A stretch of 61,139 nt of DNA from Desulfobacterales bacterium S7086C20. GTDB taxonomy: Bacteria > Desulfobacterota > Desulfobacteria > Desulfobacterales > C00003060. The notes below the pieces were generated by a model that was not told where the DNA came from, made no database searches, and saw nothing but the letters and a program-made list of their open reading frames with translations. The translations under genes were made by a program, and so were the position numbers. Shown one piece after another: positions 2,549-16,404 of this stretch (the stretch's first letter is position 1; each line of letters begins with the position of its first letter). Location: assembly GCA_001751075.1 (NCBI GenBank), contig MAVP01000001.1, positions 1-61,139 on the forward strand, written 5' to 3'.

Positions 2549-2980
2549 ATGTCCAAGAAAATACTAATCGTGGATGATGAGCCAGACATCATTGCTTTTC
2601 TCGGTGCGCTTCTTGACGAAAACGGTTATGCAAGTGTGAGCGCTAAGGATGGAACTGAGGGGCTGGAACTGTTGCGCGACGAAAAACCGGACCTGGTGCT
2701 ACTCGACCTGATGATGCCTAAAAAGAGCGGCATTACTATGTTTCAAGAATTGAGGAAAGACCCTGACCTTAGCAGTGTGCCCGTAGTCGTGGTTACAGGT
2801 GTTTCTGAAGTAACGGGTGTTGACTTCAGGAATTTCATGTTCAAACAACCAATGCGAGACGAAAAGAAATTCGTTGAGACAACGGGTTTGACCAAATACA
2901 CCGTGCCAGACGGCTACATAGAAAAACCTATTGATCCGGATGAGTTGATTAGGACAATAAAGGAGATCTTCAAAGAATAG
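2549..2980 (+). CDS. Stand-alone CheY-like response-regulator receiver
   Basis: ATG at 2549 follows an AAGGAGGGGG RBS. The sequence MSKKILIVDDEPDI...DLVLLDLMMPKKSG...KP is typical of a receiver domain, and there is no output domain. Confidence 0.85.
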   Translation: MSKKILIVDDEPDIIAFLGALLDENGYASVSAKDGTEGLELLRDEKPDLVLLDLMMPKKSGITMFQELRKDPDLSSVPVVVVTGVSEVTGVDFRNFMFKQPMRDEKKFVETTGLTKYTVPDGYIEKPIDPDELIRTIKEIFKE

Positions 2981-3419: not shown

Positions 3420-3785
3420 ATGACATCAAAGGGAGAACAATTGTTTGCGTATGGCCTTGCAGCCATATTGCTTATTGTGGGCGTTGTCTGTTACGCATCC
3501 TTGGCCCCAGAACCCCCTGAAGAACCTATAAGACTCATGTTTAAGACAAGTGCCGGGAAGATCCTATTTGATCACAAGATCCATACAGTTGAAGACGGGT
3601 ACGGCCTTGCGTGCGAGGATTGCCATCATGAGGAACAAGATGAGTCCAGCTCGTGTAGTGGCGAGGATTGCCATGGTCCCGATAGCGAACCAACAAGGGC
3701 TGACGCCTTTCACACTAATTGTAAGGGTTGTCATGAAGAAACTGGTGCAGGACCTGCTGAGTGTTCGGCATGTCATATGAGATAG
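3420..3785 (+). CDS. Membrane-anchored tetraheme cytochrome c (class III, c3-like)
   Basis: One N-terminal TM helix. Heme sites are CEDCH, CSGEDCH (CX4CH), CKGCH and CSACH, with an FDHKIH distal-His pattern. Confidence 0.8.
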   Translation: MTSKGEQLFAYGLAAILLIVGVVCYASLAPEPPEEPIRLMFKTSAGKILFDHKIHTVEDGYGLACEDCHHEEQDESSSCSGEDCHGPDSEPTRADAFHTNCKGCHEETGAGPAECSACHMR

Positions 3786-3822: not shown

Positions 3823-5088
3823 ATGACAAAAAGACCGTTTCTGGGGGTAGTGAAACCCCGTTTATACTACAATGTTGTGCCGGACGAGGTCGAAGAACTT
3901 CCAGCGCCTAAAAAGGTAACTCTGTTGTTGAAAAATGGGCGGAACGGAGGAGTTGCAGATGCAGTGAAGGTGGGTGATAGTGTAAAAACCGGACAGAGGC
4001 TTGGCGTGTCTGCTGGGAGTTCGGAATATGTCATTTCCTCAATAACCGGCACTATTTCTGGTGTAGCCCCCTATGTTGGCGTCTTTGGTCAGGTATTTAC
4101 GGCTATTACCATTGATGCGGGTGGACAGGATACCTGGGATGATGGGTTTAGCAAAGAAGCAAGTCTTGATGTTGCCCAAAGGTTTTTGGAATATATTCCG
4201 GGATGTCCTCCTTTCGCCGTGTTTAGTGATACCGGCAAGACCATACGTAGCATTGTTATAAACGGGATGGATCAAGACCTGTCCCTGACTGTTAATCAGT
4301 GTGTAGTCCAAAATGAGGCCGAAAACCTTAAAAGAGGGGTTCAAATTCTCAAGAAGATAACAGGCCTAGATCGTGTCATTATGGTTGTGCCCGAAAATCT
4401 GGTGCAACAAGCAAGTACCACTGGAGCAGAAGTAAAGAGGGTAGGTAATAGATATCCTGAAAGCCTTCCCCGAATGATTATGAAAAATGTGCTCGGCCAA
4501 GTGGTTTCAGCGGGGGAGACTATTGAAGAGGCAGGAACGGTATTCTTCAGTGCTGAAGCCGTGGCAGCTATAGGAAAAGCATTCGAGTCCGGTCAACTTC
4601 CAGTAAGCAAAATGCTTACCGTAGCTGGAAAAGATGGTAAAACCAAGAATGTGAAGGTGCGGATTGGATCATCCTTAGGTGATGTATTGCGATCATGTCA
4701 GACTGTGACCCATGATCGAGATCGCCTGATTTTGGGTGGGCCCATGACGGGCCTGGCCACTTATTCTGAGGATTTGCCGGTAGGGCCTGACACAGACGGA
4801 ATAGTAGTTCAAGGTGAGGCCGACAGCGCACAGGTTACGGATTATCCATGCATAAACTGTGGGGAATGCGTTCGGGTTTGTCCGGTTAAAATTCCCGTAA
4901 ATATGCTTGTTCGGTTTTTGGAGGCCAGGCTTTATGAAGATGCTAACCAATTGTACGACCTTAACTGCTGTGTTGAATGTGGACTGTGTTCCTATGTTTG
5001 TACGTCCAGGATTCCTGTCCTTCATTATATCAAACTAGGGAAATATGAACTTAGCTTGATCGAAACTTCGGAGGCGGTCAATGGGTAA
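3823..5088 (+). CDS. rnfC: RnfC-like subunit with two 4Fe-4S motifs; the NADH/FMN glycine motif is not recognisable
   Basis: C-terminal CINCGECVRVCP and CVECGLCSYVC, with overall RnfC architecture. Where GLGGAGFP..INGAECEP is expected, the sequence reads IPGCPPFAVF..INGMDQDLSL. Confidence 0.75.
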   Translation: MTKRPFLGVVKPRLYYNVVPDEVEELPAPKKVTLLLKNGRNGGVADAVKVGDSVKTGQRLGVSAGSSEYVISSITGTISGVAPYVGVFGQVFTAITIDAGGQDTWDDGFSKEASLDVAQRFLEYIPGCPPFAVFSDTGKTIRSIVINGMDQDLSLTVNQCVVQNEAENLKRGVQILKKITGLDRVIMVVPENLVQQASTTGAEVKRVGNRYPESLPRMIMKNVLGQVVSAGETIEEAGTVFFSAEAVAAIGKAFESGQLPVSKMLTVAGKDGKTKNVKVRIGSSLGDVLRSCQTVTHDRDRLILGGPMTGLATYSEDLPVGPDTDGIVVQGEADSAQVTDYPCINCGECVRVCPVKIPVNMLVRFLEARLYEDANQLYDLNCCVECGLCSYVCTSRIPVLHYIKLGKYELSLIETSEAVNG

Positions 5089-6115
5089 AGAAAAGAAACT
5101 TGTCGTTCCCCATGCATTATTTCCGTGGCAGCCAGGCAAAGAGGGGAATAAAGCAGAAAAGAGGTTTATCGTCGCCTATGGACCTCATTGGCATGATGGT
5201 GGTAAGATCTCAACAAAGAATTACAACATTGTTGTTGCCGCCCTTCCTGCCGTATTGATGGGGATTAGCCAGTATGGGGCCCCCGCTCTTGGGGTAATCG
5301 CATTGTCCATGGCCTGTGCAATGGTTTGGGAATTTGTTATGAACGTTGTCATGGGAAGGTCCGTTTCCATCGGTGACGGCAGTGCTATGGTAACAGGACT
5401 TCTGTTTGGTATGCTTCTGCCGGCTACTGCTCCCTGGTGGGTTGTTCTTCTGGGCACTTTTGCAGCCATAGTTATAGGGAAACAGATATTCGGTGGAATT
5501 GGGTTTAACCCTTTGAATCCTCCCCTACTTGCCCTTGCCATGTTGGTGATCTCGTTTGATGGAATCTTTGATTTCAATGAAGCATTATTAAACTATGACC
5601 TAGATTTTGCCATGACCTATCCCCTGGCCAACCTTAAGGCTTTTGGTACGGCCGGTATTGGCGAATTTGGCCTGGGCGCCCTCTTCATGGGTAAACAGGC
5701 AGGCGCCATTGGATCTACATTTGGCCTAGGACTTACCATAGGAGGCATTTATCTTCTGTTGAGAGGATATATCCGCTGGGAAATCTCCCTTTCATTTTTG
5801 GCGGGCATTTTTATAACGGCGCTTCTGTTTAACATGGCGGATTCAGCAAAATACGCCGGCCCGGCATTCCACTTGGTCACCGGGTATACATTGATAGCGG
5901 CCTTTTTTCTGATTCCAGAAGACTCTTCGTCTCCAGTCAATTTCATCCCCATGCTCATATTTGGAGTCTTAGCCGGGGTGATGACTGTACTCATTAGGAA
6001 TATTGGGGCCTATGTGGATGGTATTCCCTTTTCCATCCTGCTCTTAAATCTTGCCAATCCACTCCTGGATAAGATCAGACCAAAGGCGATTGGAAAGGTG
6101 GTAGAAAATGCGTGA
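5081..6115 (+). CDS. rnfD: RnfD-like polytopic membrane subunit
   Basis: GGIGFNPLNP block, multiple TM helices, and an ATG overlapping the rnfC stop. There is no SGAT/TGAT motif anywhere in the protein. Confidence 0.8.
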   Translation: MGKEKKLVVPHALFPWQPGKEGNKAEKRFIVAYGPHWHDGGKISTKNYNIVVAALPAVLMGISQYGAPALGVIALSMACAMVWEFVMNVVMGRSVSIGDGSAMVTGLLFGMLLPATAPWWVVLLGTFAAIVIGKQIFGGIGFNPLNPPLLALAMLVISFDGIFDFNEALLNYDLDFAMTYPLANLKAFGTAGIGEFGLGALFMGKQAGAIGSTFGLGLTIGGIYLLLRGYIRWEISLSFLAGIFITALLFNMADSAKYAGPAFHLVTGYTLIAAFFLIPEDSSSPVNFIPMLIFGVLAGVMTVLIRNIGAYVDGIPFSILLLNLANPLLDKIRPKAIGKVVENA

Positions 6116-6701
6116 TATTATCAGGATGATAGTGGTGCTTGCCGTTTTGGCAGCTTGTTCGGGCGGCTTGCTGGCGGCGGTCAAGTCAGGGACTGCTGCG
6201 AAAATCGAAGTTCAGCAACTAACGTTTGTCAAGGGGCCGGCTATTCAGGAGATCCTTAAAGGTTGCACCAACAATCCGATCGAAGATCGCTTTAAACTGA
6301 AAGTGGGGGATGAAGAGAAGACTTTTTTTGTGGGCAAATTCGACAATACCCCTCCAGCCGTTGTTTATGAAACCTTTGGCAAAGGTTTTGCGGGCGATGT
6401 TGGTATTATGGTGGGCGTTAACATTGAAACGGACAAACTTATTGGCATAGGCATTACGACACATTCTGAAACGCCCGGCTTGGGTGCCAGGGCCAAAACC
6501 GACCGAGGTTTTAAGGAGAGCTTTCAGGGACTTTCCATTAAAGACGCTATTAAGGTTAATAAAGATGGCGGTAATGTGGATTCCATATCCGGCGCAACCG
6601 TGACATCCAGAGGGGTGTGTACAGGGATTACCGGTAGTTCTGATATGTACCAAGAACTTAAGCCGAAAATCATGGAAAATGTTAAGGCCTTTGGCAGTTA
6701 G
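6108..6701 (+). CDS. rnfG: RnfG FMN-binding subunit
   Basis: N-terminal anchor plus the SISGATVTSRG flavinylation-type motif. The gene overlaps rnfD. Confidence 0.85.
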   Translation: MRDIIRMIVVLAVLAACSGGLLAAVKSGTAAKIEVQQLTFVKGPAIQEILKGCTNNPIEDRFKLKVGDEEKTFFVGKFDNTPPAVVYETFGKGFAGDVGIMVGVNIETDKLIGIGITTHSETPGLGARAKTDRGFKESFQGLSIKDAIKVNKDGGNVDSISGATVTSRGVCTGITGSSDMYQELKPKIMENVKAFGS

Positions 6702-6712: not shown

Positions 6713-7321
6713 ATGGCCAAAACGATTGTTCAAGAGTTTACCAAGGGATTGTGGGATGAGATACCACCGTTTCGTCTTGTGCTCGGTCTTTGCCCGGTTT
6801 TAGCGGTGACCAAGACACTAGGCAACGGAGTTGGAATGGGGGTAGCAGCTACGTTTGTGCTTCTGTGTTCCAATATTCTGGTATCGGCGCTTCGTTCGGT
6901 AATACCGGGGAAAGTAAGGGTGCCTTGTTTCATTATCATTATTGCCACCTTTGTTGTTGTAGTAGAACTGGTTATGCAGGCTGTCGCGTATCCCCTTTTT
7001 CTTCAGCTGGGGATCTTTATTCCTTTGATCGTAGTAAATTGTATTATTCTCGGACGAGCTGAGGCCTTTGCCTTTAAGAACGGGGTGGCGGCCGCAGCAG
7101 CTGACGGGCTCGGCATAGGGGCAGGATTTACGATTTCTCTAGCAGCATTAGGGGCCCTTCGGGAAATTCTTGGCAGTGGCACACTGTCAATCCCCTTTTC
7201 AGACAGTGTTATACAAATGTTCGGACCGGACTTTCAGCCTTTTTCTTTCATGATCGAAGCTCCCGGCGCCTTTGTTTGTTTGGGTCTGATGCTTGGGGTC
7301 ATGAACCTGGCCGGAAAATAG
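6713..7321 (+). CDS. rnfE: RnfE membrane subunit
   Basis: Typical RnfE/NqrD-like sequence (LGLCPVLAVT, IPLIVVNCIILGRAE). Confidence 0.85.
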   Translation: MAKTIVQEFTKGLWDEIPPFRLVLGLCPVLAVTKTLGNGVGMGVAATFVLLCSNILVSALRSVIPGKVRVPCFIIIIATFVVVVELVMQAVAYPLFLQLGIFIPLIVVNCIILGRAEAFAFKNGVAAAAADGLGIGAGFTISLAALGALREILGSGTLSIPFSDSVIQMFGPDFQPFSFMIEAPGAFVCLGLMLGVMNLAGK

Positions 7322-7348: not shown

Positions 7349-7924
7349 ATGGGAGACTATGTCTTACTCGCAATAAGTGCTATTTTGGTCAACAATATTT
7401 TGCTGATCCAGTACTTAGGCAACTGTCCCTTTCTGGGTACGTCTAAGAAGATGGATACTGCAGTGGGCATGGCTATGGCGGTGGTCTTTGTCCTGGCCAT
7501 GGCAGGTATTGTGACCTGGGTCTTGGAAGTCGTCTTTCTGAAACCATTGGGACTTGAATACATGCGCACAATCGTATTTATTTTGGTGATTGCCGCATTA
7601 GTCCAATTCGTGGAGATCTTTCTCAAAAAGAGCATGCCAGCGCTTTATGCGGGGCTGGGGATCTTTCTCCCATTGATTACGACCAATTGTGCTGTTATGG
7701 GGGTGTGTCTGATCAATATCAAAGAGGAGTACAACTTCGTAGAAATGCTTGTCTCTTCCATAGCCTATCCGGCCGGTTTTGGTTTGGCCTTGATTCTTTT
7801 TGCCGGACTGCGTGAACGTATTATCATTGGCCGGGTTCCCAAGCCTATGGAGGACACGGCCATTGCCTTGGTAACAGCAGGATTTATGTCTCTGGCCTTT
7901 ATAGGCTTTAATGGTATGATTTAA
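7349..7924 (+). CDS. rnfA: RnfA membrane subunit
   Basis: Typical RnfA/NqrE-like sequence (NNILLIQYLGNCPFLG, LPLITTNCAVMG). Confidence 0.85.
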   Translation: MGDYVLLAISAILVNNILLIQYLGNCPFLGTSKKMDTAVGMAMAVVFVLAMAGIVTWVLEVVFLKPLGLEYMRTIVFILVIAALVQFVEIFLKKSMPALYAGLGIFLPLITTNCAVMGVCLINIKEEYNFVEMLVSSIAYPAGFGLALILFAGLRERIIIGRVPKPMEDTAIALVTAGFMSLAFIGFNGMI

Positions 7925-7965: not shown

Positions 7966-10056
7966 ATGTTAGAACCCTTACTTCTCATGTTGGCATTAGG
8001 GGCTGTTTCCGGCACAATCCTGGGGATTGCCTCCAAGGTATTTTATGTGTGGGAAGATCCCCGCATCGCTGAGGTAGAAGATTGTCTGGCCGGCGCCAAC
8101 TGTGGTGCATGTGGTTATACCGGATGTTCGGCTTGTGCAGCAGCCATAGTGGAAGGTAGGGCGCCAGCCAGTGCGTGTATTGTAGGTGGTGCTACTTCCG
8201 CAACAAAGGCGGCGGCGGTTATGGGCATGGAAGTTGGGGCGGCCGAGCCGCTTATATCTGAAAATACATGTACCGGCGGATTTCGAGCACCGGAGAAATA
8301 TTACTATATGGGTGTCAACGATTGTCGGGCTGCTTACATGCTCTATGCGGGGGCCAAGGATTGTGGTGTGGGGTGCCTTGGTTTTGGAAGCTGTGTGAAG
8401 GCCTGTCTGTTCGATGCACTCAAGCTTGGTCCTGAAGGTTTTCCTGTAGTGGATATAGAGAAATGCGTGGGATGCGGGGCCTGCGAGAATGCTTGCCCCA
8501 AGGGGATTATGCAGGTTCGCACGCCTTCCGAGCGAATCCTTCATGTCAACCTTAATACCGACCGTCTTGCCCCCTGTCGACAGACATGTCCTGCTGAAAT
8601 CAACATTCCGAAATATATAAACCATATTAAGAATGGGGAGTATGACAAGGCGTACTTGACCATTATGGAACGTAACCCGATGCCGCTTTCAATAGGTCGT
8701 GTATGTCCCCATCCCTGCGAGGATGCTTGCCGCAGGGCCACGGGAGATGATGCCCCTGTTTCTATCAATCAACTGAAGAGATTTTGTTCTGACTGGGTGT
8801 TTGACAATAATATGCCTATAGATCTATCGGTAGCTCCGGATACGGGTTACAGGGTGGCCATCGTGGGCGGAGGTCCGAGTGGTTTGAGCGCCGCTTATTT
8901 CTTGAGACGTTTGGGACACCAGGTGAAAATCTTTGAATGGATGCCGGAACTTGGGGGAATGATCTATTACGGTATTCCTGAGTATCGGCTTCCCAAGGCA
9001 ATCCTTGGAAAGGATGTTCAACGGATCCTGGACCTTGGAGTTGAGGTAAAGACCGGAGTAAAATTTGGTGTTGACTTTAATTTGGAATCTCTGGTTGGCG
9101 GGGGGTATGATGCCGTGGTTATGTCTATTGGGGCCTGGAATCACGCCTCGGCGCGCATTCCAGACGAGGATAAGGTGAAAGGTGTCATTCCTGCTACTAT
9201 CTATCTAAGAAGGCAGGGGCTGGGCCAGGACAATCCCATCGGTAAAAGGGTCGGAGTTATCGGTGGGGGCAATGTTGCCATGGATGCCTTAAGGACCAGC
9301 GTGCGTCTTGGGGCCGAAAAGGTCTACTGCCTCTATCGGCGAGAGATCAAGGATATGCCTGCGAACCATGTTGAAATAGAGGCCTGTCAACATGAAGGGA
9401 TTGAATTTATCACCTTGTGCAGTCCCACAAAGTTTGTTACGGACGACGAGGGAAACCTTACAGGTATTGAATACCTAAAAAACGAACTCGGTGAACCTGA
9501 CGCTAGTGGTAGACAAAAGCCTGTGCCGATTGAAGGGTCTGAGACAGTACTCGAACTCGATAATTTTGTTATTGCCATCGGCCAGAAAACGGATTCAGCC
9601 TTTGCAGATGAAGAAGGAACGGCAGTATCCAGAATTGACACCTTCAAAGGCGCGTTGGTGGTTAACGCAGATACCATGCAAACAACCGTTCCTTACGTAT
9701 TTTCCAGCGGTGATTCCGCCGGTCCGCCGGGGCTTTTAGTTGGGGCTGTTGGCGCCGGCAGGCGCGCTGCTAGGGGTATCCATAAGTACCTTATGCGTGA
9801 GGAGATGGTCTTTCCAGACGCTAGACTTCGTGTCGATTCTAGGCGGATGACTGGTCATATCCCCGGGACCATCTTTGAAAGTGTTGAAGGTATTCAGAAA
9901 AAAGGACGTATAGGACAACCTGAGCTTGAACCCGGTTCTTATGAAAGACAGCACACCGTGGCCGAGGTGGATTTGACTGTTACAGAAGAAGACGCATTAA
10001 AAGAGGCAAACCGGTGTATGCGTTGTTGTCTTACTTGTTATAATAGCGACACATAA
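7966..10056 (+). CDS. rnfB: RnfB fused to a GltD-like (glutamate synthase small subunit / NfnB / SudA type) NAD(P)H-dependent FAD oxidoreductase
   Basis: The N-terminus has a TM helix, CGACGYTGC and two ferredoxin motifs. From about aa 195 (nt 8548) it has CRQTCPAEINIP...RVCPHPCEDAC, FAD site VAIVGGGPSGLSAAY and NAD(P)H site VGVIGGGNVAMDA. The C-terminus reads CMRCCLTC. Confidence 0.8.
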   Translation: MLEPLLLMLALGAVSGTILGIASKVFYVWEDPRIAEVEDCLAGANCGACGYTGCSACAAAIVEGRAPASACIVGGATSATKAAAVMGMEVGAAEPLISENTCTGGFRAPEKYYYMGVNDCRAAYMLYAGAKDCGVGCLGFGSCVKACLFDALKLGPEGFPVVDIEKCVGCGACENACPKGIMQVRTPSERILHVNLNTDRLAPCRQTCPAEINIPKYINHIKNGEYDKAYLTIMERNPMPLSIGRVCPHPCEDACRRATGDDAPVSINQLKRFCSDWVFDNNMPIDLSVAPDTGYRVAIVGGGPSGLSAAYFLRRLGHQVKIFEWMPELGGMIYYGIPEYRLPKAILGKDVQRILDLGVEVKTGVKFGVDFNLESLVGGGYDAVVMSIGAWNHASARIPDEDKVKGVIPATIYLRRQGLGQDNPIGKRVGVIGGGNVAMDALRTSVRLGAEKVYCLYRREIKDMPANHVEIEACQHEGIEFITLCSPTKFVTDDEGNLTGIEYLKNELGEPDASGRQKPVPIEGSETVLELDNFVIAIGQKTDSAFADEEGTAVSRIDTFKGALVVNADTMQTTVPYVFSSGDSAGPPGLLVGAVGAGRRAARGIHKYLMREEMVFPDARLRVDSRRMTGHIPGTIFESVEGIQKKGRIGQPELEPGSYERQHTVAEVDLTVTEEDALKEANRCMRCCLTCYNSDT

Positions 10057-10345: not shown

Positions 10346-10359
10346 GAAAGGTTTTTTTG

Positions 10360-10902
10360 ATGAACGAGACAAAGCAATCTTATGTTGGCAGCGAGAGCAC
10401 TGAAGATGCTGATGCCGCACAAAAACGCATTGTGATCTTGGGTGTGGGCAATTTGTTGTTGTCAGACGAAGGTGTCGGCGTTCATGTGGCCAACAAGCTC
10501 ATGGAGATGGATCTTCCTTCCGGCGTTGAGGTGATCGAAGGGGGGACGGATGGTTTCAGGTTGATGAATGTGGTAATGGGTGCAGACCGGGTTGTGGTCG
10601 TTGATGCAGTAAAAGGTGGAGGTGAACCCGGCTCCATCTACCGGTTTGACATCGATGATGTCCCATCATCTCCCGAATCCTATAAGACCTCTGTTCACCA
10701 GATCGGAATACTGGAAGTAATCCATCTCTCGGAGTTTATCGGTAAACCCCCTGAAACCACAATCATTGGTGTAGAACCAAAATCTCTTGATATGTCCATG
10801 GAACTATCCCCCGAAGTACAAGATAAAGTTCCCCGAATTATCGAGTTGGTCTTAGAAGAGGTGCGAAAATTTGTGCCCGAAATTGAAGGAAGCTCTCAAT
10901 AA
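10360..10902 (+). CDS. NiFe-hydrogenase maturation endopeptidase (HybD/HyaD/HoxM family)
   Basis: ILGVGNLLLSDEGVGVHV...EGGTDG...DAV...H motifs. ATG at 10360. Confidence 0.85.
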   Translation: MNETKQSYVGSESTEDADAAQKRIVILGVGNLLLSDEGVGVHVANKLMEMDLPSGVEVIEGGTDGFRLMNVVMGADRVVVVDAVKGGGEPGSIYRFDIDDVPSSPESYKTSVHQIGILEVIHLSEFIGKPPETTIIGVEPKSLDMSMELSPEVQDKVPRIIELVLEEVRKFVPEIEGSSQ

Positions 10903-10908
10903 CGCCAA

Positions 10909-11150
10909 GACTTTTTGAGGTGTTGCAAAGTGAGTAACATCTCAAAAAGTCCTGGCATTAAACCGGGCGAAGGGGTTTTATTTTCGAAGGCGGTATCAAT
11001 TATGTTTGTGGGGCGTGGCCGGATATTTTGTGATTGGCCAAGCACGTGCCAAGCTCATAAAGACATTTGAGTCAATCACAATATCCGGCCACTGCGAAAG
11101 TCCGAAAGAACGACCAAGATACCGTCTTCAAAAATAAGACCCCTTCGCCC
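10909..11150. repeat. 16-bp-stem hairpin (10909..10951) followed by a nested imperfect palindrome of about 186 bp (10965..11150)
   Basis: GACTTTTTGAGGTGTT pairs with AACATCTCAAAAAGTC. GGGCGAAGGGGTTTTATTTTCGAAGGCGGTATC pairs with GATACCGTCTTCAAAAATAAGACCCCTTCGCCC. The inner pair is GGCCGGATATTTTGTGATTGG with CAATCACAATATCCGGCC. Confidence 0.8.
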
Positions 11151-11234
11151 TAGATTATTGAGAACTTACCAAAGTAAGTACCAACGTAGCGGGAAAACTT
11201 GCAATCCTAAAGTTTGTATGCGATTCTAATCATT

Positions 11235-12113
11235 ATGCTTGTCTACGAGAAGGTCTCCTTTGGTTCGGAGTGTAACAATCGTTGTATGACCTGTCCGTCT
11301 GCCCGCCAGCAGGAAACCCCACGCCTAAATGAGCTTGTCGCTCAAATTGATGCCCTGAAGAATGGTGAAAACCTTGAACTGTTTGGTGGTGAACCGACAC
11401 TTCACGAAGACTTGGTGTCGCTTATTTCTTACGCCAGGAAGCGAGGCGCCAGGCGTATAAAGTTGGTTACAAATGGCCGGAGGCTTGCAGACGCAGATTT
11501 TCTGTTCCATTTGGTAGAAGAAGGCTGTCGGATTTTTGAAGTGAAGATATACGGTTCAAGGCCTGAGACGCACGATGCGGTTACATGTGTGAGGGGAAGT
11601 CTTGATGAGACACTTCGTGGACTACAAAACCTTGGTGGCATATCAGATTCTGGCGGCCATGAAGGTGACATCTATGTAGGAATTCGTTTTGGAGTGACAA
11701 ATACGAATCTTGAAGACCTGGTTCCTGCTGTTGCCTTTCTCATGTCTTTTAGTATAGACGCTATTAGTTTTGTTCGCATGGGCGGTGATTTCCCGATAGT
11801 CCAGGCAGCCCGTATGGTGGCAAATGCCATGAAGGTGGCCACTCTAAATCGTATTTGGTCTATGTGTGAGGGTTTCCCCCCCTGTGTGATGAAAGGCTCT
11901 GAGACTCATCTTTCCGAATTACTTCAGCCTGTGGCCTTCGAAAACGACAAGCCTAAATCGTGCCTTAGGTGTGTCTTTGCAAAGATATGTACAGGCCCCC
12001 ATGGGGATTATGCCGGTAAAGGTTTGCGGGATTTCAAAGCTGTCTCAGCATCTCCATACTCCAAAGATATGGAGTACCTCCTTAAGATGAGGTCAATCCA
12101 TGCCAAGCAATAG
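11235..12113 (+). CDS. Radical SAM protein with a C-terminal CX2CX5C cluster (SPASM/twitch-like)
   Basis: CNNRCMTC (CX3CX2C), GGEPTLH, and C-terminal CLRCVFAKIC. The start is uncertain (TTG 11214 or ATG 11235). Confidence 0.7.
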   Translation: MLVYEKVSFGSECNNRCMTCPSARQQETPRLNELVAQIDALKNGENLELFGGEPTLHEDLVSLISYARKRGARRIKLVTNGRRLADADFLFHLVEEGCRIFEVKIYGSRPETHDAVTCVRGSLDETLRGLQNLGGISDSGGHEGDIYVGIRFGVTNTNLEDLVPAVAFLMSFSIDAISFVRMGGDFPIVQAARMVANAMKVATLNRIWSMCEGFPPCVMKGSETHLSELLQPVAFENDKPKSCLRCVFAKICTGPHGDYAGKGLRDFKAVSASPYSKDMEYLLKMRSIHAKQ

Positions 12114-13377
12114 TAGTCGTATCTTGTTAATTTCTTTTAATGTGGCCGGTCATGACTCTCTGGCCCTGGGGTATATAAAGGCCTATGCCCTGAAGGAGCC
12201 CACTGTTTCTCGCAGAACCTTTATAGAAATCTTGAACTTCAGCAATGAGGAGGGTGATGTTAGACAGGCGCTCTATTACATTACGGAGTTCAAACCCCAA
12301 CTTATCGGCTTTTCGTGCTATTGCTGGAGTATGCAAAAGATCTTGGAGTTAGCTCGGTCGGTCAAACAGATCATACCAGAAGTTCCCCTCGTTGTTGGCG
12401 GGCCGGAAGTTGGTCCCGTATCAGATAAGTATCTTGAGCAAAATCCGGCTTTGGATGTAGGGGTCCATGATGAGGGAGAGGCAGTCTTTTTGGAGCTCAT
12501 AAAATATTATTTTGCCGGTAAGGGCAAGCTGGAAAATATCGCCGGGATTTCCTTTCGCAAAGGCAAAAAGATTGTAAGAAATGAAGACCGTTCCCCGATC
12601 AAGGATCTAGACGAGATCCCTTCTCCATATTTGACCGGGGTTCTTACGCCCAGAGATGGTGTGACCTATCTGCAGTCATTCAGGGGGTGTCCATTCAGGT
12701 GTGGTTTTTGTTACGAGGCTGGACGGCACAAAGGCCTTCGTTTCTTTTCCTATGAGCGAGTACAAGCTGAGGTTGAACTCATTATGGCAGATTCCGGCAT
12801 AAGGAGTTTTCATTTTGTTGATTCTGTCTTTAATCTGAACTCCAAGCACCTAAAGAAACTTACCGATATACTCTGCACAGCTAATCGAGATAACAAGCAA
12901 CTGAGAACAATCGAGGTCTTTGCGGAAAAGATAGATGAAAAAACAGTGGAATACTTGATCCAAGCAGGTGTGCAGAGTATCGAGACCGGGCCCCAGACAG
13001 CTATCCCGGAAACTCAGCAGCGTATCGGAAGATATTTCGATCCTGAGAAATTCTCACGAGCTGTCCGCCTGATGGGGGATAGAGGCATTGAGGTGTGGTG
13101 TGATCTGATTGTCGGTCTGCCCGGAGACAGCTTTTTCCGCTGTGCCTATTCGGTTGCATTTATCATGAATCTTAGACCTGCCCGTGTTGTCATGAGCATT
13201 CTCCACGTCTTGCCAGGCACCCAGCTCTTTGAACAGGCCGAAAAATTCGGTCTCTCTTTTGACTCCCAACCACCACACTACGTAGTAGGAAGCGATACCT
13301 TTCCTTTTAAACAGATTTATGAGGCGGTGCTCTTTTCATCCGCTGTTACCAAAGAATATAATCTTGCCCTTTCGTAG
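12100..13377 (+). CDS. B12-binding-domain radical SAM protein (class B)
   Basis: N-terminal cobalamin-binding-like domain, then FRGCPFRCGFCYE (CX3CX2C). It overlaps the preceding gene by 14 nt. Confidence 0.75.
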   Translation: MPSNSSRILLISFNVAGHDSLALGYIKAYALKEPTVSRRTFIEILNFSNEEGDVRQALYYITEFKPQLIGFSCYCWSMQKILELARSVKQIIPEVPLVVGGPEVGPVSDKYLEQNPALDVGVHDEGEAVFLELIKYYFAGKGKLENIAGISFRKGKKIVRNEDRSPIKDLDEIPSPYLTGVLTPRDGVTYLQSFRGCPFRCGFCYEAGRHKGLRFFSYERVQAEVELIMADSGIRSFHFVDSVFNLNSKHLKKLTDILCTANRDNKQLRTIEVFAEKIDEKTVEYLIQAGVQSIETGPQTAIPETQQRIGRYFDPEKFSRAVRLMGDRGIEVWCDLIVGLPGDSFFRCAYSVAFIMNLRPARVVMSILHVLPGTQLFEQAEKFGLSFDSQPPHYVVGSDTFPFKQIYEAVLFSSAVTKEYNLALS

Positions 13378-13440
13378 GGCTCGCTTGTATCATATATTTG
13401 TTCACTCTATACCCTAGCGCGACTTTCAAGCTCTTTTTGT

Positions 13441-13599
13441 AGGGCTCGTCACTCAATAACTGTCACATTTTGCTGGTCTTTTGGGCCGTCTTCTGCGTTG
13501 CTCGGTTGGTCACATACCTCGGCATGCTCCCGCCCGAGCGCCTTGAATACAACCCAAAATCCTTCGCAATCTTGAGACACTTATTTCGTGACAAACCCT
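13441..13599. repeat. Family B imperfect palindrome
   Basis: GGGCTCGTCACTCAATAACTGTCACATTTTGCTGG is mirrored by ...GAGACACTTATTTCGTGACAAACCC. The start motif TAGGGCTCG is duplicated at 13375, and a similar arm occurs at 60994. Confidence 0.65.
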
Positions 13600-13694
13600 T
13601 AGAACTGTCAAAATCGTGTGTTTAAGATCGTCAATTTATTGACAATGTGTGATCACTTCTTGGTGTTTGCGGGGAAATGGGGGCTGTAATGTCC

Positions 13695-13709
13695 GGCACA
13701 CGGCTTGCA
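13695..13709 (+). promoter_or_regulatory. Candidate sigma54 (-24/-12) promoter upstream of the hydrogenase genes
   Basis: GGCAC-ACGGC-TTGCA has canonical GG-to-GC spacing and lies 124 nt upstream of the ATG at 13833. Confidence 0.5.
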
Positions 13710-13832
13710 TAACTTTAATCTAAATCTAGGATTTCATAAAGAAATCTCCCTTACTGTCGACAATCAAAGTCTTGAATTAATGCTTATGGCCACAATTACT
13801 TTGACGGTTTTGTGATAAAAGGAGGTTGTACA

Positions 13833-14804
13833 ATGAACGGACTATTTGGTGACATATCACGCAGGGACTTCATGAAGTACTGCGCTACAACTGCTGCTGT
13901 GCTTGGTCTTTCAGAGATGGAATTAGTTTCCAAGGTCTCAGAGGCTTTGGCAGCGTCGAGCAGCAAGGCGCCGGTAGTATGGCTGGAAGGTCAGGACTGT
14001 GCGGGGTGTACCATCTCATTAGCAGGCGCCCTAAATCCGCCTGTATCTTCGATCATTCTGGATAAGCTGTCCATCCGGTATCATGAAACCATAATGGCAA
14101 GCGCCGGTTACCTGGCAGAGGCAGTTTATGAAGATACGGTTAAGGCTGGGGGGCATGTGTTGTGCGTAGAGGGCTCCATTCCCACTGCAGATGACCGGTT
14201 CTGTATGATTGGAGGACGGCCCTTCAGGGAGATGGTCAAAGAGTCTGCCGAGAAGGCGGCGGTAATCATTGCCGTTGGGGCCTGTGCCGCATACGGTGGT
14301 ATTCCGGCGGCTGGTCCCACTAAGTCAGTTGGCATTGGCAAGATTGTAAAAGACAAACCTATTATCAATCTTCCCACTTGCCCGGTGCATTGCGATCATC
14401 TGGTAGGTTCCATCCTCTACTTTCTGGCGACTAAGAGTGCGCCGCCATTAGATAAGATCGGGAGACCAAAACTCTATTTTGACGAGCTTGTCCACGACAA
14501 TTGCAGGAGGCGGTCCTACTTTGATGATGGACTTTTCCTGACAGATTGGAATGATCCCAAGCAGAAGAACTGGTGTCTCTATGAGAAGGGTTGCAAGGGC
14601 CCGGACACCTATGCAGACTGCCCGGTGCGTAGATGGAACGATGGACAGAATTTCTGCATTGACTGTGGCGCCGGATGTATGGGTTGTGCAGAGCCGGATT
14701 TCTATGACGGCATGTCGCCTCTGTACACGGCGGAAAGTGAGCGATCACGAAATATAATGGCCAGAAAAGAGGCCGGACTTATTCCACCAAAGGAGAAGGC
14801 ATGA
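13833..14804 (+). CDS. Periplasmic [NiFe] hydrogenase small subunit (Tat signal)
   Basis: AAGGAGG RBS, twin-arginine SRRDFMKY, and typical Cys ligand pattern. There is no C-terminal membrane anchor. Confidence 0.9.
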   Translation: MNGLFGDISRRDFMKYCATTAAVLGLSEMELVSKVSEALAASSSKAPVVWLEGQDCAGCTISLAGALNPPVSSIILDKLSIRYHETIMASAGYLAEAVYEDTVKAGGHVLCVEGSIPTADDRFCMIGGRPFREMVKESAEKAAVIIAVGACAAYGGIPAAGPTKSVGIGKIVKDKPIINLPTCPVHCDHLVGSILYFLATKSAPPLDKIGRPKLYFDELVHDNCRRRSYFDDGLFLTDWNDPKQKNWCLYEKGCKGPDTYADCPVRRWNDGQNFCIDCGAGCMGCAEPDFYDGMSPLYTAESERSRNIMARKEAGLIPPKEKA

Positions 14805-14820
14805 AAGGAAGTGATAGAAA

Positions 14821-16383
14821 ATGGGAAAGAAAATAACAATCGATCCGGTTACAAGAATTGAAGGACACCTTGCAATAACAGTTGAACTTGAAAACGGCAA
14901 GGTCAAAGATGCCTGGAGCAGTGGTACCATGGCTAGAGGTTTTGAAGCCCTCCTTCAAGGAAGAGACCCAAGGGATGCGCCTTTTGTGACAAGCCGCTTT
15001 TGTGGAGTATGTTACAGTGTCCATCAAATGGCCAGTATTAGGGCTCTGGATGAGGCCTTTGGGGCTAATGTGCCTTGGGGCGGAATGCTTCTAAGAAACC
15101 TTGCCATGGGTGCCGAGTATGTCTACGACCATATCCTCCATTTTTATCATCTCAGCGCCCTTGATTACATTGATATCATGGCGGTGGCCGCATACAAGGG
15201 CAGGGATAAGTCATTGAATGCCCTGAAAGAAAAGGTAGTAGGCCTGGTCAAATCAAAGGATGTCTTTCCCCTTACACCCAGGTACAAGCCCGACGAGTTT
15301 AGTGTGACGGATCCGGACATGGTAACCTCGGCCGTCAAACACTATATCGACGCCCTTGCCATTCAAGCCAAGGCCAGGAACATGGGCGCCATCTTTGGAG
15401 GAAGGCAGCCCCATTACCAAAGCCTGGTCGTAGGCGGCTGTACGCAGTATCCGGATATAAATATGGTAGCAAAATACCGCACCATGTTGGATGAAATGGC
15501 ACAGTTTGTAAACGAAGTGTATATTCCGGATGTCCTTGCCTTTGGGACAGGCCCTCTGTTTCCCTTGGCAAAGATGGGATTAGGTGGTGGTCACTATAAT
15601 TATATGTCCTATGGTGCCTTAGAGTTGGACAAGGATGGCAAGGACCAGGTATTTCCGGCAGGGGTAATCAAAAATCTTGATCCAGGAAACATCAAGGTAG
15701 AAGGCTTCAAGCCCGACAAGATTACCGAATCAGTCAAACATGGTTGGTACAAGGAAAACAAACCCGTGCATCCTTACAATGGCGAGCAGGTCTTTGATCT
15801 TGACAAAGAGGGTGCATATTCCTTTATCAAGGCGCCTCGTTATGACGGTGAGCCTATGGAAGTTGGGCCCCTTGCGAGGATGCTTATTGCAGGCAATCCT
15901 GATCTTCTAGGTCTTATCGAAAAAGGCGCAAAGCCAGGGGTCGTGGCACGACACGCAGCAAGAGCTATCGAAACGAAGCTAATCATAGATGCTTGTTACA
16001 AATGGTGTGACGAGTTGCTTTCTGAGATGACAAAACCGGGCTTTAAAATCCATGACACGGCTCACTACGAACCGCCTAAGGAAGGTGAAGGGGTCGGTTT
16101 TTATGAGGCGCCGCGCGGATCGCTGGGACACTGGGTCAAGATCAAGGACAGAAAGATTGAAAACTATCAATGTGTGGTTCCGTCCACCTGGAACGCCTCG
16201 CCTAGATGCGAGAACAAATATCGTGGACAGTACGAGGAATCACTCATCGGGGCACCTGTTCCTGATCCCGACAATCCGATCAATGTGGTGCGCATTATTC
16301 GCTCCTTTGATCCCTGTCTGGCCTGTGCCATACATTTAATTGATCCACAAACAAACGAGCTAAAAGACTTTATTGTGGAATAA
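14821..16383 (+). CDS. [NiFe] hydrogenase large subunit
   Basis: N-terminal TRIEGH and RFCGVC. C-terminal DPCLACAIH followed by a 15-aa extension, which is the protease substrate. The ligand is Cys rather than Sec, so this is NiFe and not NiFeSe. Confidence 0.9.
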   Translation: MGKKITIDPVTRIEGHLAITVELENGKVKDAWSSGTMARGFEALLQGRDPRDAPFVTSRFCGVCYSVHQMASIRALDEAFGANVPWGGMLLRNLAMGAEYVYDHILHFYHLSALDYIDIMAVAAYKGRDKSLNALKEKVVGLVKSKDVFPLTPRYKPDEFSVTDPDMVTSAVKHYIDALAIQAKARNMGAIFGGRQPHYQSLVVGGCTQYPDINMVAKYRTMLDEMAQFVNEVYIPDVLAFGTGPLFPLAKMGLGGGHYNYMSYGALELDKDGKDQVFPAGVIKNLDPGNIKVEGFKPDKITESVKHGWYKENKPVHPYNGEQVFDLDKEGAYSFIKAPRYDGEPMEVGPLARMLIAGNPDLLGLIEKGAKPGVVARHAARAIETKLIIDACYKWCDELLSEMTKPGFKIHDTAHYEPPKEGEGVGFYEAPRGSLGHWVKIKDRKIENYQCVVPSTWNASPRCENKYRGQYEESLIGAPVPDPDNPINVVRIIRSFDPCLACAIHLIDPQTNELKDFIVE

Positions 16384-16404
16384 AGATAAACTGCATAATC
16401 TAAG

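What the first reader, a model, noticed from the sequence alone, without database searches (positions are those of the whole stretch)
7966..10056. RnfB fused in one ORF to a GltD/NfnB/SudA-type NAD(P)H:FAD oxidoreductase
The 696-aa product has no internal stop or frame break.
- aa 1-190 are RnfB: a TM helix, CGACGYTGC and two ferredoxin motifs.
- aa about 195-620 carry all GltD hallmarks: CRQTCPAEINIP, RVCPHPCEDAC, GGGPSGLSAAY, GGGNVAMDA and FSSGD.
- The tail ends in an extra CMRCCLTC motif.

RnfB is normally the ferredoxin-facing subunit. A fused NAD(P)H flavoprotein would add a second cytoplasmic electron entry or exit, which raises the possibility of bifurcation or confurcation.
Basis: seen in the sequence. 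Interest (0 to 1): 0.7.

Follow-up and report, generated by a model that had tools for sequence, protein, structure and literature searches.

The report
Known large RnfB of sulfate reducers
The RnfB–flavoprotein fusion is real, but it is the already described "large RnfB" of the Rnf2 (Desulfobacula Tol2-type) membrane complex of sulfate-reducing bacteria, and its sequence points to a plain NADPH entry or exit module, not an electron-bifurcating one.

Summary
Window 7966-10056 (+) is one uninterrupted 696-aa ORF, the last gene of a cytochrome c-rnfCDGEAB operon. Residues 1-200 are RnfB and residues 200-696 are a GltD/NfnB-like FAD/NAD(P)H iron-sulfur flavoprotein. The fusion is not an assembly artefact: more than 120 full-length homologues (53-99% identity) come from independent assemblies.

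It is not new. The same ~700-aa RnfB, paired with an RnfC lacking its FMN/NADH domain and a cytochrome c3 gene, is published as the "Desulfobacula toluolica Tol2-type Rnf" or "Rnf2". It belongs to the Desulfobacteraceae core genome and is abundantly expressed, but no biochemistry exists.

- The NAD(P)H site relocates rather than adds: RnfC here has lost all three FMN/NADH motifs.
- The tail CMRCCLTC is not an extra cluster. It is the circularly permuted first segment of the Fer4_20 domain.
- Three markers (permuted order, Lys271, Asn467) place the module with StnC/NfnA(Bfu)-type NADPH modules, which are experimentally non-bifurcating.

I also found that RnfD has lost its covalent-FMN threonine motif in this whole clade, while RnfG keeps its own. 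This points to NADPH-to-cytochrome c electron flow.

Verdict: already known. Interest 0.35.

The parts
3420..3785 (+). Small membrane-anchored tetrahaem cytochrome c (c3 family), first gene of the cluster
   Evidence: Pfam Cytochrom_CIII, 2.8e-9. Hydrophobic N-terminal segment plus four haem motifs: CEDCH, CSGEDCH, CKGCH, CSACH. A cytochrome gene occupies this position in most Desulfobacterales loci.
3823..5088 (+). rnfC, degenerate: no FMN/NADH site, but two 4Fe-4S motifs kept
   Evidence: Below the TIGR01945 cutoff (203 vs 246 bits). GxGGAxFP reads IPGCPPFAV, NGxECEPYLT reads NGMDQDLSLT, YPQGxEKQL reads YPESLPRMI. CxxCxxCxxxC occurs twice, at aa 343-353 and 383-393.
5081..6115 (+). rnfD, lacking the covalent-FMN (ApbE flavinylation) threonine motif
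   Evidence: PF03116, 1.9e-86. No [ST][GA]A[TS] motif anywhere in the protein. 'LDFAMT-YPLANLK' aligns to 'LDGVTTATPLAILK' of the solved RnfD 7zc6_D. The same loss is seen in all related Desulfobacterota-type loci.
6108..6701 (+). rnfG, periplasm-facing FMN subunit, flavinylation motif intact
   Evidence: NCBIfam RnfG_DVU2794, 3.8e-72, above cutoff. SGAT at aa 161-164. The motif is conserved in all loci.
6713..7321 (+). rnfE
   Evidence: PF02508, 7e-60; TIGR01948 above cutoff. Cys27 and Cys110 sit at the 2Fe-2S ligand positions (the positional assignment rests on established knowledge).
7349..7924 (+). rnfA
   Evidence: PF02508, 9e-54; TIGR01943 above cutoff. Cys26 and Cys114 present.
7966..10056 (+). 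Large rnfB (696 aa): RnfB N-terminal part fused to an NADPH:FAD:2x[4Fe-4S] module
7966..8043 (+). RnfB N-terminal membrane helix (aa 1-26)
   Evidence: Hydrophobic segment; the AF2 model has a helix at aa 2-25. It aligns to the TM helix region of solved RnfBs.
8086..8181 (+). Flexible 4Fe-4S domain of RnfB (aa 41-72; Cys46, 49, 54, 71)
   Evidence: PF04060, 6.8e-10. The four Cys are invariant in 51 homologues.
8362..8508 (+). 2x[4Fe-4S] ferredoxin-like domain of RnfB (aa 133-181)
   Evidence: Fer4/Fer4_7 hits. Colinear with A. woodii and C. tetanomorphum RnfB up to about aa 200. Eight invariant Cys.
8569..8811 (+). Fer4_20 domain, profile positions 30-112 (aa 202-282): Cys204, 208, 247, 251, 255 and Lys271
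   Evidence: Pfam, 6e-24. Alignment to Csac NfnA cluster-A7 ligands C108/C147/C151/K170.
8848..9759 (+). FAD and NAD(P)H Rossmann domains (aa 295-598)
   Evidence: Pyr_redox_2 over profile positions 1-291 of 291. pLDDT above 90. GGGPSGL, GGGNVAMD, YRR457-459, MPAN464-467 and GD582-583 are invariant.
9928..10053 (+). C-terminal tail (aa 655-696) with RC684xxC687(C/G)xxC691: permuted first segment of the Fer4_20 domain
   Evidence: The tail alone hits Fer4_20 profile positions 2-28. An artificial tail+aa201-295 construct gives a full-length Fer4_20 match, 98.7 vs 84.1 bits. The tail aligns to residues 6-46 of NfnB chains 5jca_L and 4ylf_B.

Best explanation
This is the large RnfB subunit of an Rnf2 (Desulfobacula toluolica Tol2-type) complex from a Desulfobacterales MAG.

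Anatomy:
- The protein keeps the membrane helix, the small flexible 4Fe-4S domain and one 2x[4Fe-4S] ferredoxin domain of RnfB.
- The variable ferredoxin-accepting polyferredoxin tail of clostridial RnfBs is replaced by a module of the StnC / NfnA(Bfu) / FdhB kind: NADPH site, FAD, and two 4Fe-4S clusters in a circularly permuted Fer4_20 domain.

Proposed mechanism (inferred):
- NADPH donates a hydride to the FAD.
- The FAD releases the two electrons one at a time, without bifurcation, through its Lys-ligated proximal cluster and distal cluster into the RnfB clusters.
- From there the electrons pass to the intramembrane 2Fe-2S of RnfA/RnfE and to the covalently bound FMN of RnfG on the periplasmic side.
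- RnfC has lost its FMN/NADH site and RnfD its covalent-FMN threonine. The most likely partner at the other end is therefore the membrane-anchored tetrahaem cytochrome c3 encoded first in the operon, which feeds the Qrc/menaquinone route to sulfate reduction.
- Flow is probably coupled to Na+/H+ movement and is reversible.

Architecturally the subunit is a convergent analogue of NqrF: a TM helix, a small FeS domain and an NAD(P)H-flavin head.

Shown: domain identity, motif losses, synteny and conservation. Inferred: NADPH specificity, direction of flow, the cytochrome as partner, and ion coupling.
For: Domain architecture and operon:
- Domain calls and rnf operon context.

Conservation and synteny:
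- More than 120 full-length homologues.
- cytc-rnfCDGEA-rnfB(long) synteny in about 12 Desulfobacterales loci. Long RnfB also occurs in Pseudodesulfovibrio/Desulfovibrionaceae, Desulfocarbo, Salidesulfovibrio and one Fibrobacteraceae MAG.

Motif losses in partner subunits:
- All long-RnfB loci with a scorable RnfC lack all three FMN/NADH motifs. About 30 short-RnfB loci outside Desulfobacterota keep them.
- The RnfD flavinylation Thr motif is lost in the same clade. The RnfG motif is universally kept.

Nature of the fused module:
- Closest solved relatives by sequence and by fold are Csac NfnA (9bov_A), T. sibiricus NfnA (9n5u_A) and StnC (8oh5_C), ahead of NfnB, GltD and DPD.
- In those enzymes NADPH reduces the FAD, which passes electrons singly down a cluster chain and is not the bifurcation site.
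- Lys271 corresponds to StnC/NfnA K170 and is invariant in 51 sequences. Asn467 stands in place of NfnB Arg333.
- The tail is a permuted part of the Fer4_20 domain.

Literature:
- Published descriptions of the same complex, proteomic detection of its subunits, and the cytochrome c3/Qrc hypothesis.
- The NqrF/RnfB architecture comparison comes from the 2025 RNF/NQR review.
Against: No biochemical data exist for any Rnf2 complex.
- RnfC keeps both 4Fe-4S motifs in every locus. This argues that electrons still pass through RnfC to some unidentified cytoplasmic partner.
- Loss of the RnfD threonine does not exclude a non-covalent flavin.
- NADPH (about -320 to -380 mV) to cytochrome c3 offers little driving force for ion pumping.
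- The retained 2x[4Fe-4S] domain could still accept ferredoxin.
- Degenerate RnfC/RnfD also occur with a short RnfB (L036, L038). Their loss is therefore not strictly tied to the fusion.
- The cytochrome was hardly detected in proteomes.
- A dhcA mutant of D. alaskensis had no fitness defect.
- NADPH versus NADH specificity rests only on homology (YRR motif).
Confidence: 0.55

Rival explanations
1. First reader's model. The complex is still a ferredoxin:NAD+ Rnf, and the fused flavoprotein adds a second nicotinamide site. The FAD would bifurcate or confurcate electrons Nfn-style between ferredoxin, NAD(P)H and the membrane chain.
For: The module belongs to the same superfamily as the bifurcating NfnB. 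Arg341, the equivalent of NfnB Arg201, is conserved. The RnfB ferredoxin-like domain is retained, so ferredoxin could still dock.
Against: RnfC has no FMN/NADH motifs, so there is no first NAD site. Lys271 stands where NfnB has Glu, Asn467 where NfnB has Arg333, and the domain order is the permuted StnC/NfnA(Bfu) type. In those enzymes the FAD is experimentally non-bifurcating or terminal in the chain. In StnC the conserved Arg (R239) does not contact N5 of the FAD.
Confidence: 0.1
2. Same hardware, opposite physiological direction. Electrons from periplasmic H2 or formate oxidation enter via cytochrome c3 and RnfG. The ion gradient drives them uphill to RnfB, where NADP+ is reduced to supply cytoplasmic NADPH.
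For: Rnf is reversible in general. A [NiFe] hydrogenase small and large subunit pair and a HycI-type maturation protease lie just downstream in the window. In D. alaskensis, rnf is induced on H2 and rnf mutants cannot grow on H2 or in syntrophic coculture.
Against: Many Desulfobacteraceae form few or no hydrogenases yet make Rnf2 constitutively and abundantly on organic substrates. The D. alaskensis data concern a related Rnf of the Desulfovibrionaceae, whose RnfB type was not established here.
Confidence: 0.2
3. Nqr-like loop. NADPH enters at RnfB, electrons cross to RnfG and return through RnfD (non-covalent flavin) to the two 4Fe-4S clusters of RnfC. RnfC then reduces an unknown cytoplasmic or membrane acceptor more positive than NADPH, such as menaquinone, DsrC or a ferredoxin-like protein. 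The cytochrome would be accessory.
For: Both CxxCxxCxxxC motifs of RnfC are conserved in every locus despite the loss of FMN/NADH motifs. RnfC gives NqrA-family hits. [quoted passage not shown]
Against: RnfD lacks the flavinylation threonine needed in the canonical return path. No candidate acceptor gene is conserved in the cluster apart from the cytochrome.
Confidence: 0.15
4. Artefact. Two adjacent genes (rnfB and a gltD-like gene) were merged by a mis-assembly or sequencing error near nt 8500-8560.
For: None found. The source is a metagenome-assembled genome.
Against: The same uninterrupted architecture is found in more than 120 protein clusters from NCBI, JGI, ENA and Logan assemblies and in complete genomes such as Desulfosarcina alkanivorans PL12. 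The linker is conserved. The protein has been detected by proteomics in cultured strains.
Confidence: 0.01

Closest known systems
Rnf2 / Desulfobacula toluolica Tol2-type Rnf complex (Wohlbrand et al. 2016 Proteomics; Dorries et al. 2016 BMC Genomics, PMC5109826; Sci Adv 2025, PMC11887813)
   Same: An RnfB of about 700 aa: RnfB residues 1-200 plus a pyridine-nucleotide oxidoreductase part. RnfC lacks its FMN/NADH domain. A cytochrome c3 gene sits in the cluster. The taxon is Desulfobacterales. All of these were verified here.
   Different: Nothing essential; this is a member. Details added here that I did not find in the passages of those papers I read: the permuted Fer4_20 tail, the Lys271 and Asn467 markers, and the loss of the RnfD flavinylation motif. 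The Sci Adv supplement calls the other subunits 'very similar'.
NfnL-like/GltD-like NADPH domain of Bfu-type transhydrogenases: StnC (8oh5_C), Csac NfnA (9bov_A), T. sibiricus NfnA (9n5u_A); related FdhB/SfrB-type 'PRK12771' proteins
   Same: Best sequence matches (325-367 bits) and best fold matches. Same permuted order, with the CxxC segment after the Rossmann domains. Same Lys ligand position (K170 corresponds to K271). No Arg at the NfnB-333 position. FAD plus two 4Fe-4S clusters.
   Different: Here the module is fused behind an RnfB membrane anchor and FeS domains, not in front of an Fdh/NuoG-like domain. There are no StnAB/NfnBC partner genes. PRK12771 scores 475 bits, below its cutoff of 516.
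NfnB / NfnL (large subunit of the bifurcating NfnAB/NfnSL) and SudA/GltD small subunits
   Same: Same superfamily and fold (TM-score normalised to target about 0.8). The FAD and NADPH motifs and the Arg201 equivalent are conserved.
   Different: Fer4_20 is circularly permuted. Lys stands in place of the Glu cluster ligand, and Asn in place of Arg333. There is no NfnA/GltB partner in the operon. Scores fall below the family cutoffs: TIGR01316 313 vs 472, TIGR01317 195 vs 448.
[quoted passage not shown]
   Same: It works alike: an N-terminal TM helix, a small flexible FeS domain that docks on the RnfA/E (NqrD/E) pair, and a nicotinamide-oxidising flavin head. In both systems the RnfC/NqrA partner lacks the NADH site.
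   Different: It is not homologous. NqrF has a 2Fe-2S ferredoxin and an FNR-type FAD domain. Unlike NqrA, the RnfC here keeps two 4Fe-4S motifs. No quinone site is known.
Canonical RnfB (A. woodii 9eri_B, C. tetanomorphum 7zc6_B)
   Same: Residues 1-200 are colinear, about 40% identical, at 1e-46 to 1e-51. The gene sits after rnfA.
   Different: The C-terminal polyferredoxin domains are replaced. One Cys of the clostridial 'CxGxC' is missing (Phe106). This leaves Cys102 and Cys120 as a conserved orphan pair.

Membership tests
RnfB (Rnf complex subunit B) | N-terminal membrane helix followed by a PF04060 four-Cys 4Fe-4S domain | tested here: met
   PF04060 at aa 41-72, 6.8e-10. Cys46, 49, 54 and 71 are invariant. 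AF2 helix at aa 2-25.
RnfB (Rnf complex subunit B) | At least one 2x[4Fe-4S] ferredoxin-like domain after the flexible domain | tested here: met
   Fer4 hits at aa 137-181. Colinear with solved RnfBs.
RnfB (Rnf complex subunit B) | Encoded in an rnf operon with rnfA, C, D, E and G | tested here: met
   rnfCDGEA lies immediately upstream on the same strand with gaps of 41 nt or less.
RnfB (Rnf complex subunit B) | Curated HMM score above cutoff | tested here: inconclusive
   TIGR01944 rnfB scores 70.8 vs a cutoff of 68.7 (passes). All clostridial or Methanosarcina-type equivalog models fall below cutoff, e.g. 170 vs 445, because the C-terminal half differs.
Rnf2 / Tol2-type Rnf | RnfB of about 700 aa carrying a pyridine-nucleotide oxidoreductase / NAD-binding part | tested here: met
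   696 aa; Pyr_redox_2 at aa 295-598. Definition taken.
Rnf2 / Tol2-type Rnf | RnfC without the NADH-ubiquinone-oxidoreductase/FMN domain signature | tested here: met
   The GxGGAxFP, ECEP and YPQGxEK motifs are all absent. Complex1_51K scores only 32 bits, and there is no SLBB hit.
Rnf2 / Tol2-type Rnf | Cytochrome c3-type gene in the cluster | tested here: met
   3420-3785: four haem motifs and a Cytochrom_CIII hit.
Rnf2 / Tol2-type Rnf | Ferredoxin/NAD(P)H oxidation coupled to an ion gradient and cytochrome reduction (proposed function) | not testable with these tools
   Hypothesis only, also in the literature.
Bifurcating NfnB/NfnL | Colinear Fer4_20 domain with the N-terminal CxxC ligands ahead of the Rossmann folds | tested here: not met
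   The CxxC segment is at the C-terminus; the domain is permuted.
Bifurcating NfnB/NfnL | Glu ligand on the FAD-proximal 4Fe-4S cluster | tested here: not met
   Lys271 aligns to the Glu of 5jca_L and 4ylf_B (GKLERF / GRLERF) and to K170 of StnC/NfnA. It is invariant in 51 sequences.
Bifurcating NfnB/NfnL | Arg333 (PfNfnI-B numbering) next to the flavin | tested here: not met
   Asn467, invariant.
Bifurcating NfnB/NfnL | Partner NfnA/NfnS subunit gene adjacent | tested here: not met
   The neighbours are rnfA upstream and a HycI protease downstream.
GltD (glutamate synthase small subunit) | Family HMM above cutoff and a GltB partner | tested here: not met
   TIGR01317 scores 195 vs 448 and TIGR01318 289 vs 483. 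There is no gltB in the operon.
StnC/NfnA(Bfu)/FdhB-type NADPH module (PRK12771-like) | Permuted Fer4_20, Lys ligand of the proximal cluster, FAD and NADPH Rossmann folds | tested here: met
StnC/NfnA(Bfu)/FdhB-type NADPH module (PRK12771-like) | Curated HMM cutoff; association with an Fdh/NuoG-like domain or subunit | tested here: not met
   PRK12771 scores 475 vs 516. There is no Fdh-like domain or gene in this operon. Free-standing paralogues elsewhere do sit next to a Sec-FdhA.

The most novel reading that the evidence does not exclude
Rnf2 is not a ferredoxin:NAD+ oxidoreductase at all. It would be an independently evolved, Nqr-like machine: an NADPH dehydrogenase head on RnfB feeds the RnfA/E-RnfG half of the pump, and electrons leave (or enter) on the periplasmic side through RnfG-FMN to a membrane-anchored cytochrome c3. 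The whole cytoplasmic return branch has been decommissioned or re-purposed, since RnfD has lost its covalent FMN and RnfC its FMN/NAD site. I did not find the clade-wide loss of the RnfD flavinylation site in the papers I read. If correct, it would redefine the electron path of the Rnf found in the core genome of the dominant marine complete-oxidising sulfate reducers.
Probability: 0.35. Interest if true: 0.65.

Novelty: already known. Interest (0 to 1): 0.35.

Why it matters
Rnf2 is in the core genome of Desulfobacteraceae, the main complete oxidisers of organic carbon in marine sediments, and is made constitutively and abundantly. Its substrates, direction and ion coupling are still unknown.

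If the NADPH site sits on RnfB and the RnfC/RnfD branch is disabled, energy-budget models change. Those that treat this complex as a standard ferredoxin:NAD+ pump would be wrong. The complex would also be a second, independent example, besides Nqr, of an Rnf core re-tooled with a nicotinamide-oxidising head.

The window itself adds no new kind of system.

Tried and rejected
1. Assembly artefact at the junction: rejected on comparative data.

2. A strict 'module swap', in which RnfC loses its NAD site only when RnfB gains one: weakened. L036 and L038 have a short (~275 aa) RnfB yet the same degenerate RnfC and RnfD. L033 first looked like a third such case, but its RnfB match reaches query residue 277 and is cut by the contig end, so it is a long type.

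3. My own interim reading that the GltD-like part has two all-Cys clusters (eight conserved Cys): dropped. The alignment to Csac NfnA/StnC shows the proximal cluster is most likely Cys208/Cys247/Cys251/Lys271. The role of the invariant Cys691 stays open.

4. The strict ApbE-motif regex for RnfG gave false negatives. It was replaced by an alignment showing the motif is universal.

5. Literature searches for 'RnfB + glutamate synthase + fusion' found nothing relevant. The 2025 RNF/NQR review does not mention sulfate reducers or cytochromes. The flavinylation preprint concerns a different two-subunit Nqr/Rnf-like system.

6. The AF2 model gives no coordinates through this tool, so FAD-to-cluster geometry could not be measured. 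FeS regions have low pLDDT.

7. No tree of the GltD part was built because reference sequences could not be imported. Placement rests on HMM, PDB and Foldseek score ranking plus three diagnostic residues or features.
Full report
**1. Observation**

The window has a single ORF at 7966-10056 (+) of 696 codons with no internal stop. A GAGG Shine-Dalgarno sequence lies 7 nt upstream of the ATG.

Pfam finds these domains:
- the RnfB-type 'FeS' domain (aa 41-72)
- a 4Fe-4S dicluster domain (137-181)
- Fer4_20 (202-282)
- a full-length Pyr_redox_2 (295-598)

NCBIfam matches RnfB models over aa 5-200. It matches PRK12771 'NAD(P)-binding protein' over aa 195-693 at 3e-142.

The gene is last in a same-strand cluster:
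- cytochrome c (3420-3785)
- rnfC (3823-5088)
- rnfD (5081-6115)
- rnfG (6108-6701)
- rnfE (6713-7321)
- rnfA (7349-7924)
- rnfB (7966-10056)

**2. Not an artefact**

The protein search returned the identical sequence from this very 61,139-bp contig, named 'MAG: electron transporter RnfB [Desulfobacterales bacterium S7086C20]'. It also returned 95-99% identical 696-aa proteins from independent JGI and ENA assemblies. More than 120 clusters at 53-99% identity have the same length and Pfam content.

A scan of one genome per species found full-length copies in several lineages, almost always directly after rnfA:
- many Desulfobacterales, including the complete genome of Desulfosarcina alkanivorans PL12
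- Pseudodesulfovibrio and other Desulfovibrionaceae
- Desulfocarbo
- Salidesulfovibrio
- one Fibrobacteraceae MAG

The linker between the two halves is itself conserved.

**3. Already described**

Dorries et al. [quoted passage not shown] They add that the mode of action 'awaits experimental verification'. D. multivorans and D. autotrophicum carry it too, and its subunits were detected in membrane proteomes.

A 2025 Science Advances paper (PMC11887813) names it Rnf2. It places Rnf2 in the Desulfobacteraceae core genome and finds it abundantly and constitutively formed in six strains. Its supplement describes the same RnfB and RnfC domain differences and the cluster-encoded cytochrome c3. [quoted passage not shown]

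The 2025 RNF/NQR review does not mention this variant.

**4. RnfC and RnfD in this operon**

RnfC was aligned to the three solved RnfCs:
- 'G(L/M)GGAxFP' reads 'IPGCPPFAV'.
- 'NGxECEPYLT' reads 'NGMDQDLSLT'.
- 'YPQGxEKQL' reads 'YPESLPRMI'.
- Both CxxCxxCxxxC motifs remain.

Across the fetched loci, every long-RnfB locus with a scorable RnfC lacks all three motifs. About 30 short-RnfB loci from Firmicutes and other phyla keep them. So the NAD(P)H site on RnfB replaces the one on RnfC and does not add to it.

I then noticed that RnfD has no ApbE flavinylation motif. 'LDFAMT-YPLANLK' aligns to 'LDGVTTATPLAILK' of the solved C. tetanomorphum RnfD. The threonine is missing or not conserved in all about 25 Desulfobacterota-type loci but present in the canonical ones.

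RnfG keeps its (S/T/A/G)GAT motif everywhere, including SGAT 161-164 here. The RnfA and RnfE cysteines at the 2Fe-2S positions are present.

Two loci (L036, L038) combine a short RnfB with the same degenerate RnfC and RnfD. The degeneration is therefore broader than the fusion.

**5. What kind of flavoprotein module is it**

By sequence against the PDB, the best matches are:

| Chain | Protein | Bits |
|---|---|---|
| 9bov_A | C. saccharolyticus NfnABC subunit A | 367 |
| 9n5u_A | T. sibiricus NfnABC subunit A | 357 |
| 8oh5_C | StnC | 325 |
| 4ylf_B, 5jca_L | NfnB | 282, 274 |
| 6s6s_G, 2vdc_G | GltD | about 207 |
| 1gt8_A | DPD | 140 |

Foldseek with an AF2 model (mean pLDDT 76, Rossmann core above 90) gives the same order.

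The tail is a permuted part of the Fer4_20 domain:
- Pfam Fer4_20 matches only from profile position 30 onward in the native protein.
- The last 47 residues alone match profile positions 2-28 (E 5e-4).
- An artificial tail+aa201-295 construct gives a full-length Fer4_20 match, 98.7 vs 84.1 bits.
- HMMER aligns the tail as a separate second domain to residues 6-46 of NfnB, the 'EAxRCLQC' segment holding the first two cluster ligands.
- In 9bov, 9n5u and StnC the tail aligns colinearly.

Hence CMRCCLTC is the circularly permuted first element of the two-cluster domain, not an extra cluster. Cys684, 687 and 691 are invariant. Cys688 is C or G.

**6. Bifurcation markers**

[quoted passage not shown] Its FAD-proximal cluster has a strictly conserved Lys (K170) where NfnB has Glu.
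[quoted passage not shown] It lists C108, C147, C151 and K170 as cluster ligands.
- In the alignments these residues correspond to C208, C247, C251 and K271 here. NfnB chains show Glu at that column. K271 is invariant in 51 long RnfBs.
- A JBC 2025 study (PMC12221290) finds Arg333 of PfNfnI-B fully conserved in bifurcating NfnBs and absent in non-bifurcating relatives. Here that position is Asn467, which is invariant.
- Arg341, the Arg201 equivalent, is conserved. StnC also conserves it without using it to contact flavin N5.
- The YRR motif (457-459) matches the NADPH-binding relatives. NADPH preference is inferred from this alone.

**7. Mechanism proposed**

- Shown: an RnfB membrane anchor and three FeS clusters, followed by an NADPH-type FAD module with two more clusters. 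RnfA/E and RnfG are intact. RnfD lacks its covalent-FMN site. RnfC lacks its FMN/NADH site but keeps two cluster motifs. A membrane-anchored tetrahaem cytochrome gene heads the operon.
- Inferred: NADPH gives a hydride to the FAD. Single electrons then run through the clusters to RnfA/E and RnfG-FMN and on to the cytochrome c3 pool, or the reverse, with ion movement.
- The subunit is built like NqrF: a TM helix, a small FeS domain and a flavin head. It is not homologous to NqrF.
- Open points: the role of the conserved RnfC clusters, whether ferredoxin still docks on the retained 2x[4Fe-4S] domain, the small driving force from NADPH to c3, and ion coupling if the RnfD branch is not used.
- In D. 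alaskensis, attempts to show Fd:NAD+-coupled gradient formation in vesicles 'have been unsuccessful'. This fits an RnfC without an NAD site in that lineage. It is weak, indirect evidence.

**8. Side observations**

- A more divergent set of full-length RnfB-flavoprotein genes (34-38% identity) exists. Some follow rnf(C)DGEA (L021-L023).
- Others (L024, L026-L028) are free-standing with no rnf genes within 8 kb. In three of them the gene is divergently adjacent to an FdhA-like molybdopterin oxidoreductase with an in-frame TGA in a 'CARL-U-HSS' context.
- JGI names many long RnfBs 'formate dehydrogenase beta subunit'. Together this suggests an FdhB-like origin for the fused module.
- Downstream of rnfB the window carries a HycI-type protease, two radical-SAM genes, a [NiFe] hydrogenase small and large subunit pair, and ribF.

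**9. Verdict**

It is wrong on 'second site' and 'extra motif', and it is unsupported on bifurcation.

The feature is an already published variant (Rnf2/Tol2-type) whose biochemistry is still missing. Interest is modest (0.35). The residual novelty lies in the mechanistic details, especially the clade-wide loss of the RnfD flavinylation site.

Noticed in passing
window 5081-6115 (motif region about 5600-5629); loci L001-L023, L029, L030, L033, L036-L038, L051: RnfD lacks the ApbE flavinylation motif. Canonical RnfD has D(A/G)x(S/T)xAT-PL; here it reads DLDFAMTYPL. The threonine is absent or not conserved in all Desulfobacterota-type loci, while canonical loci keep it. I did not find this mentioned in the passages I read from the Rnf2 papers or the 2025 RNF/NQR review.
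   Followed up: yes
L024 7968-10049, L026 3968-6097, L027 3760-5850, L028 7950-10196: Free-standing RnfB-N-terminus plus NADPH-flavoprotein paralogues (34-38% identity) with no rnf genes within 8 kb. In L024, L026 and L028 they are divergently adjacent to an FdhA-like molybdopterin oxidoreductase. In L024 it has an in-frame TGA (likely selenocysteine) at 6654-6656. This may be a membrane-anchored NADP-linked formate dehydrogenase and may be the source of the fused module.
   Followed up: partly
L021 1038-3173, L022 3254-5287, L023 7977-10043: A second, divergent long-RnfB type (about 36% identity) that also sits after rnf(C)DGEA. It may be a distinct Rnf subtype; the literature mentions an 'Rnf3' in Desulfosarcina variabilis.
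   Followed up: no
L036 and L038 (Ca. Desulfofervidaceae and a Thermodesulfobacteriota MAG): Operons with a short (~275 aa) RnfB but the same degenerate RnfC (no FMN/NADH motifs) and RnfD (no flavinylation Thr). L038 also has a 4-haem cytochrome. This implies ferredoxin-to-cytochrome Rnf variants without any NAD(P) site.
   Followed up: partly
window 8269-8271 and 8323-8325 (Cys102, Cys120 of RnfB): Two invariant cysteines remain in the region where clostridial RnfBs have additional Cys. Their 'CxGxC' reads 'CTGGF' here, and a Cys near residue 199 is also missing. Their function is unexplained; they may be remnant ligands of a lost cluster or may bridge to the fused module.
   Followed up: no
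window 10036-10038 (Cys691) and 10027-10029 (Cys688): The tail carries one invariant Cys (691) and one near-invariant Cys (688) beyond the two that correspond to NfnB's first ligands. The solved relatives have 'RCxxCGC'. Ligand assignment for the distal cluster is unresolved.
   Followed up: no
window 10357-16383 and 16669-17655: Directly downstream of the rnf operon lie a HycI-type hydrogenase maturation protease, two radical-SAM proteins (one B12-binding), the [NiFe] hydrogenase small and large subunits, and then bifunctional RibF (riboflavin kinase / FAD synthetase). This may be a functional neighbourhood of cytochrome c3-linked redox enzymes and flavin supply.
   Followed up: partly
L029 3132-5245 (Salidesulfovibrio brasiliensis JCM 12178 draft): The long rnfB is split into two overlapping ORFs (aa 6-383 and 383-695 of the query). 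This is a frameshift, either a sequencing error in a draft genome or a pseudogene.
   Followed up: no
L001 7977-10115 vs 11877-16422: In one Desulfobacterales MAG the long rnfB lies about 1.8 kb upstream of cytc-rnfCDGEA and not after rnfA. This is a rearranged gene order.
   Followed up: no
window 45-2980: A PAS-domain histidine kinase (45-2426, minus strand) and a response-regulator receiver protein (2360-2980, plus strand) sit just upstream of the cytochrome/rnf cluster. No link to rnf regulation was tested.
   Followed up: no
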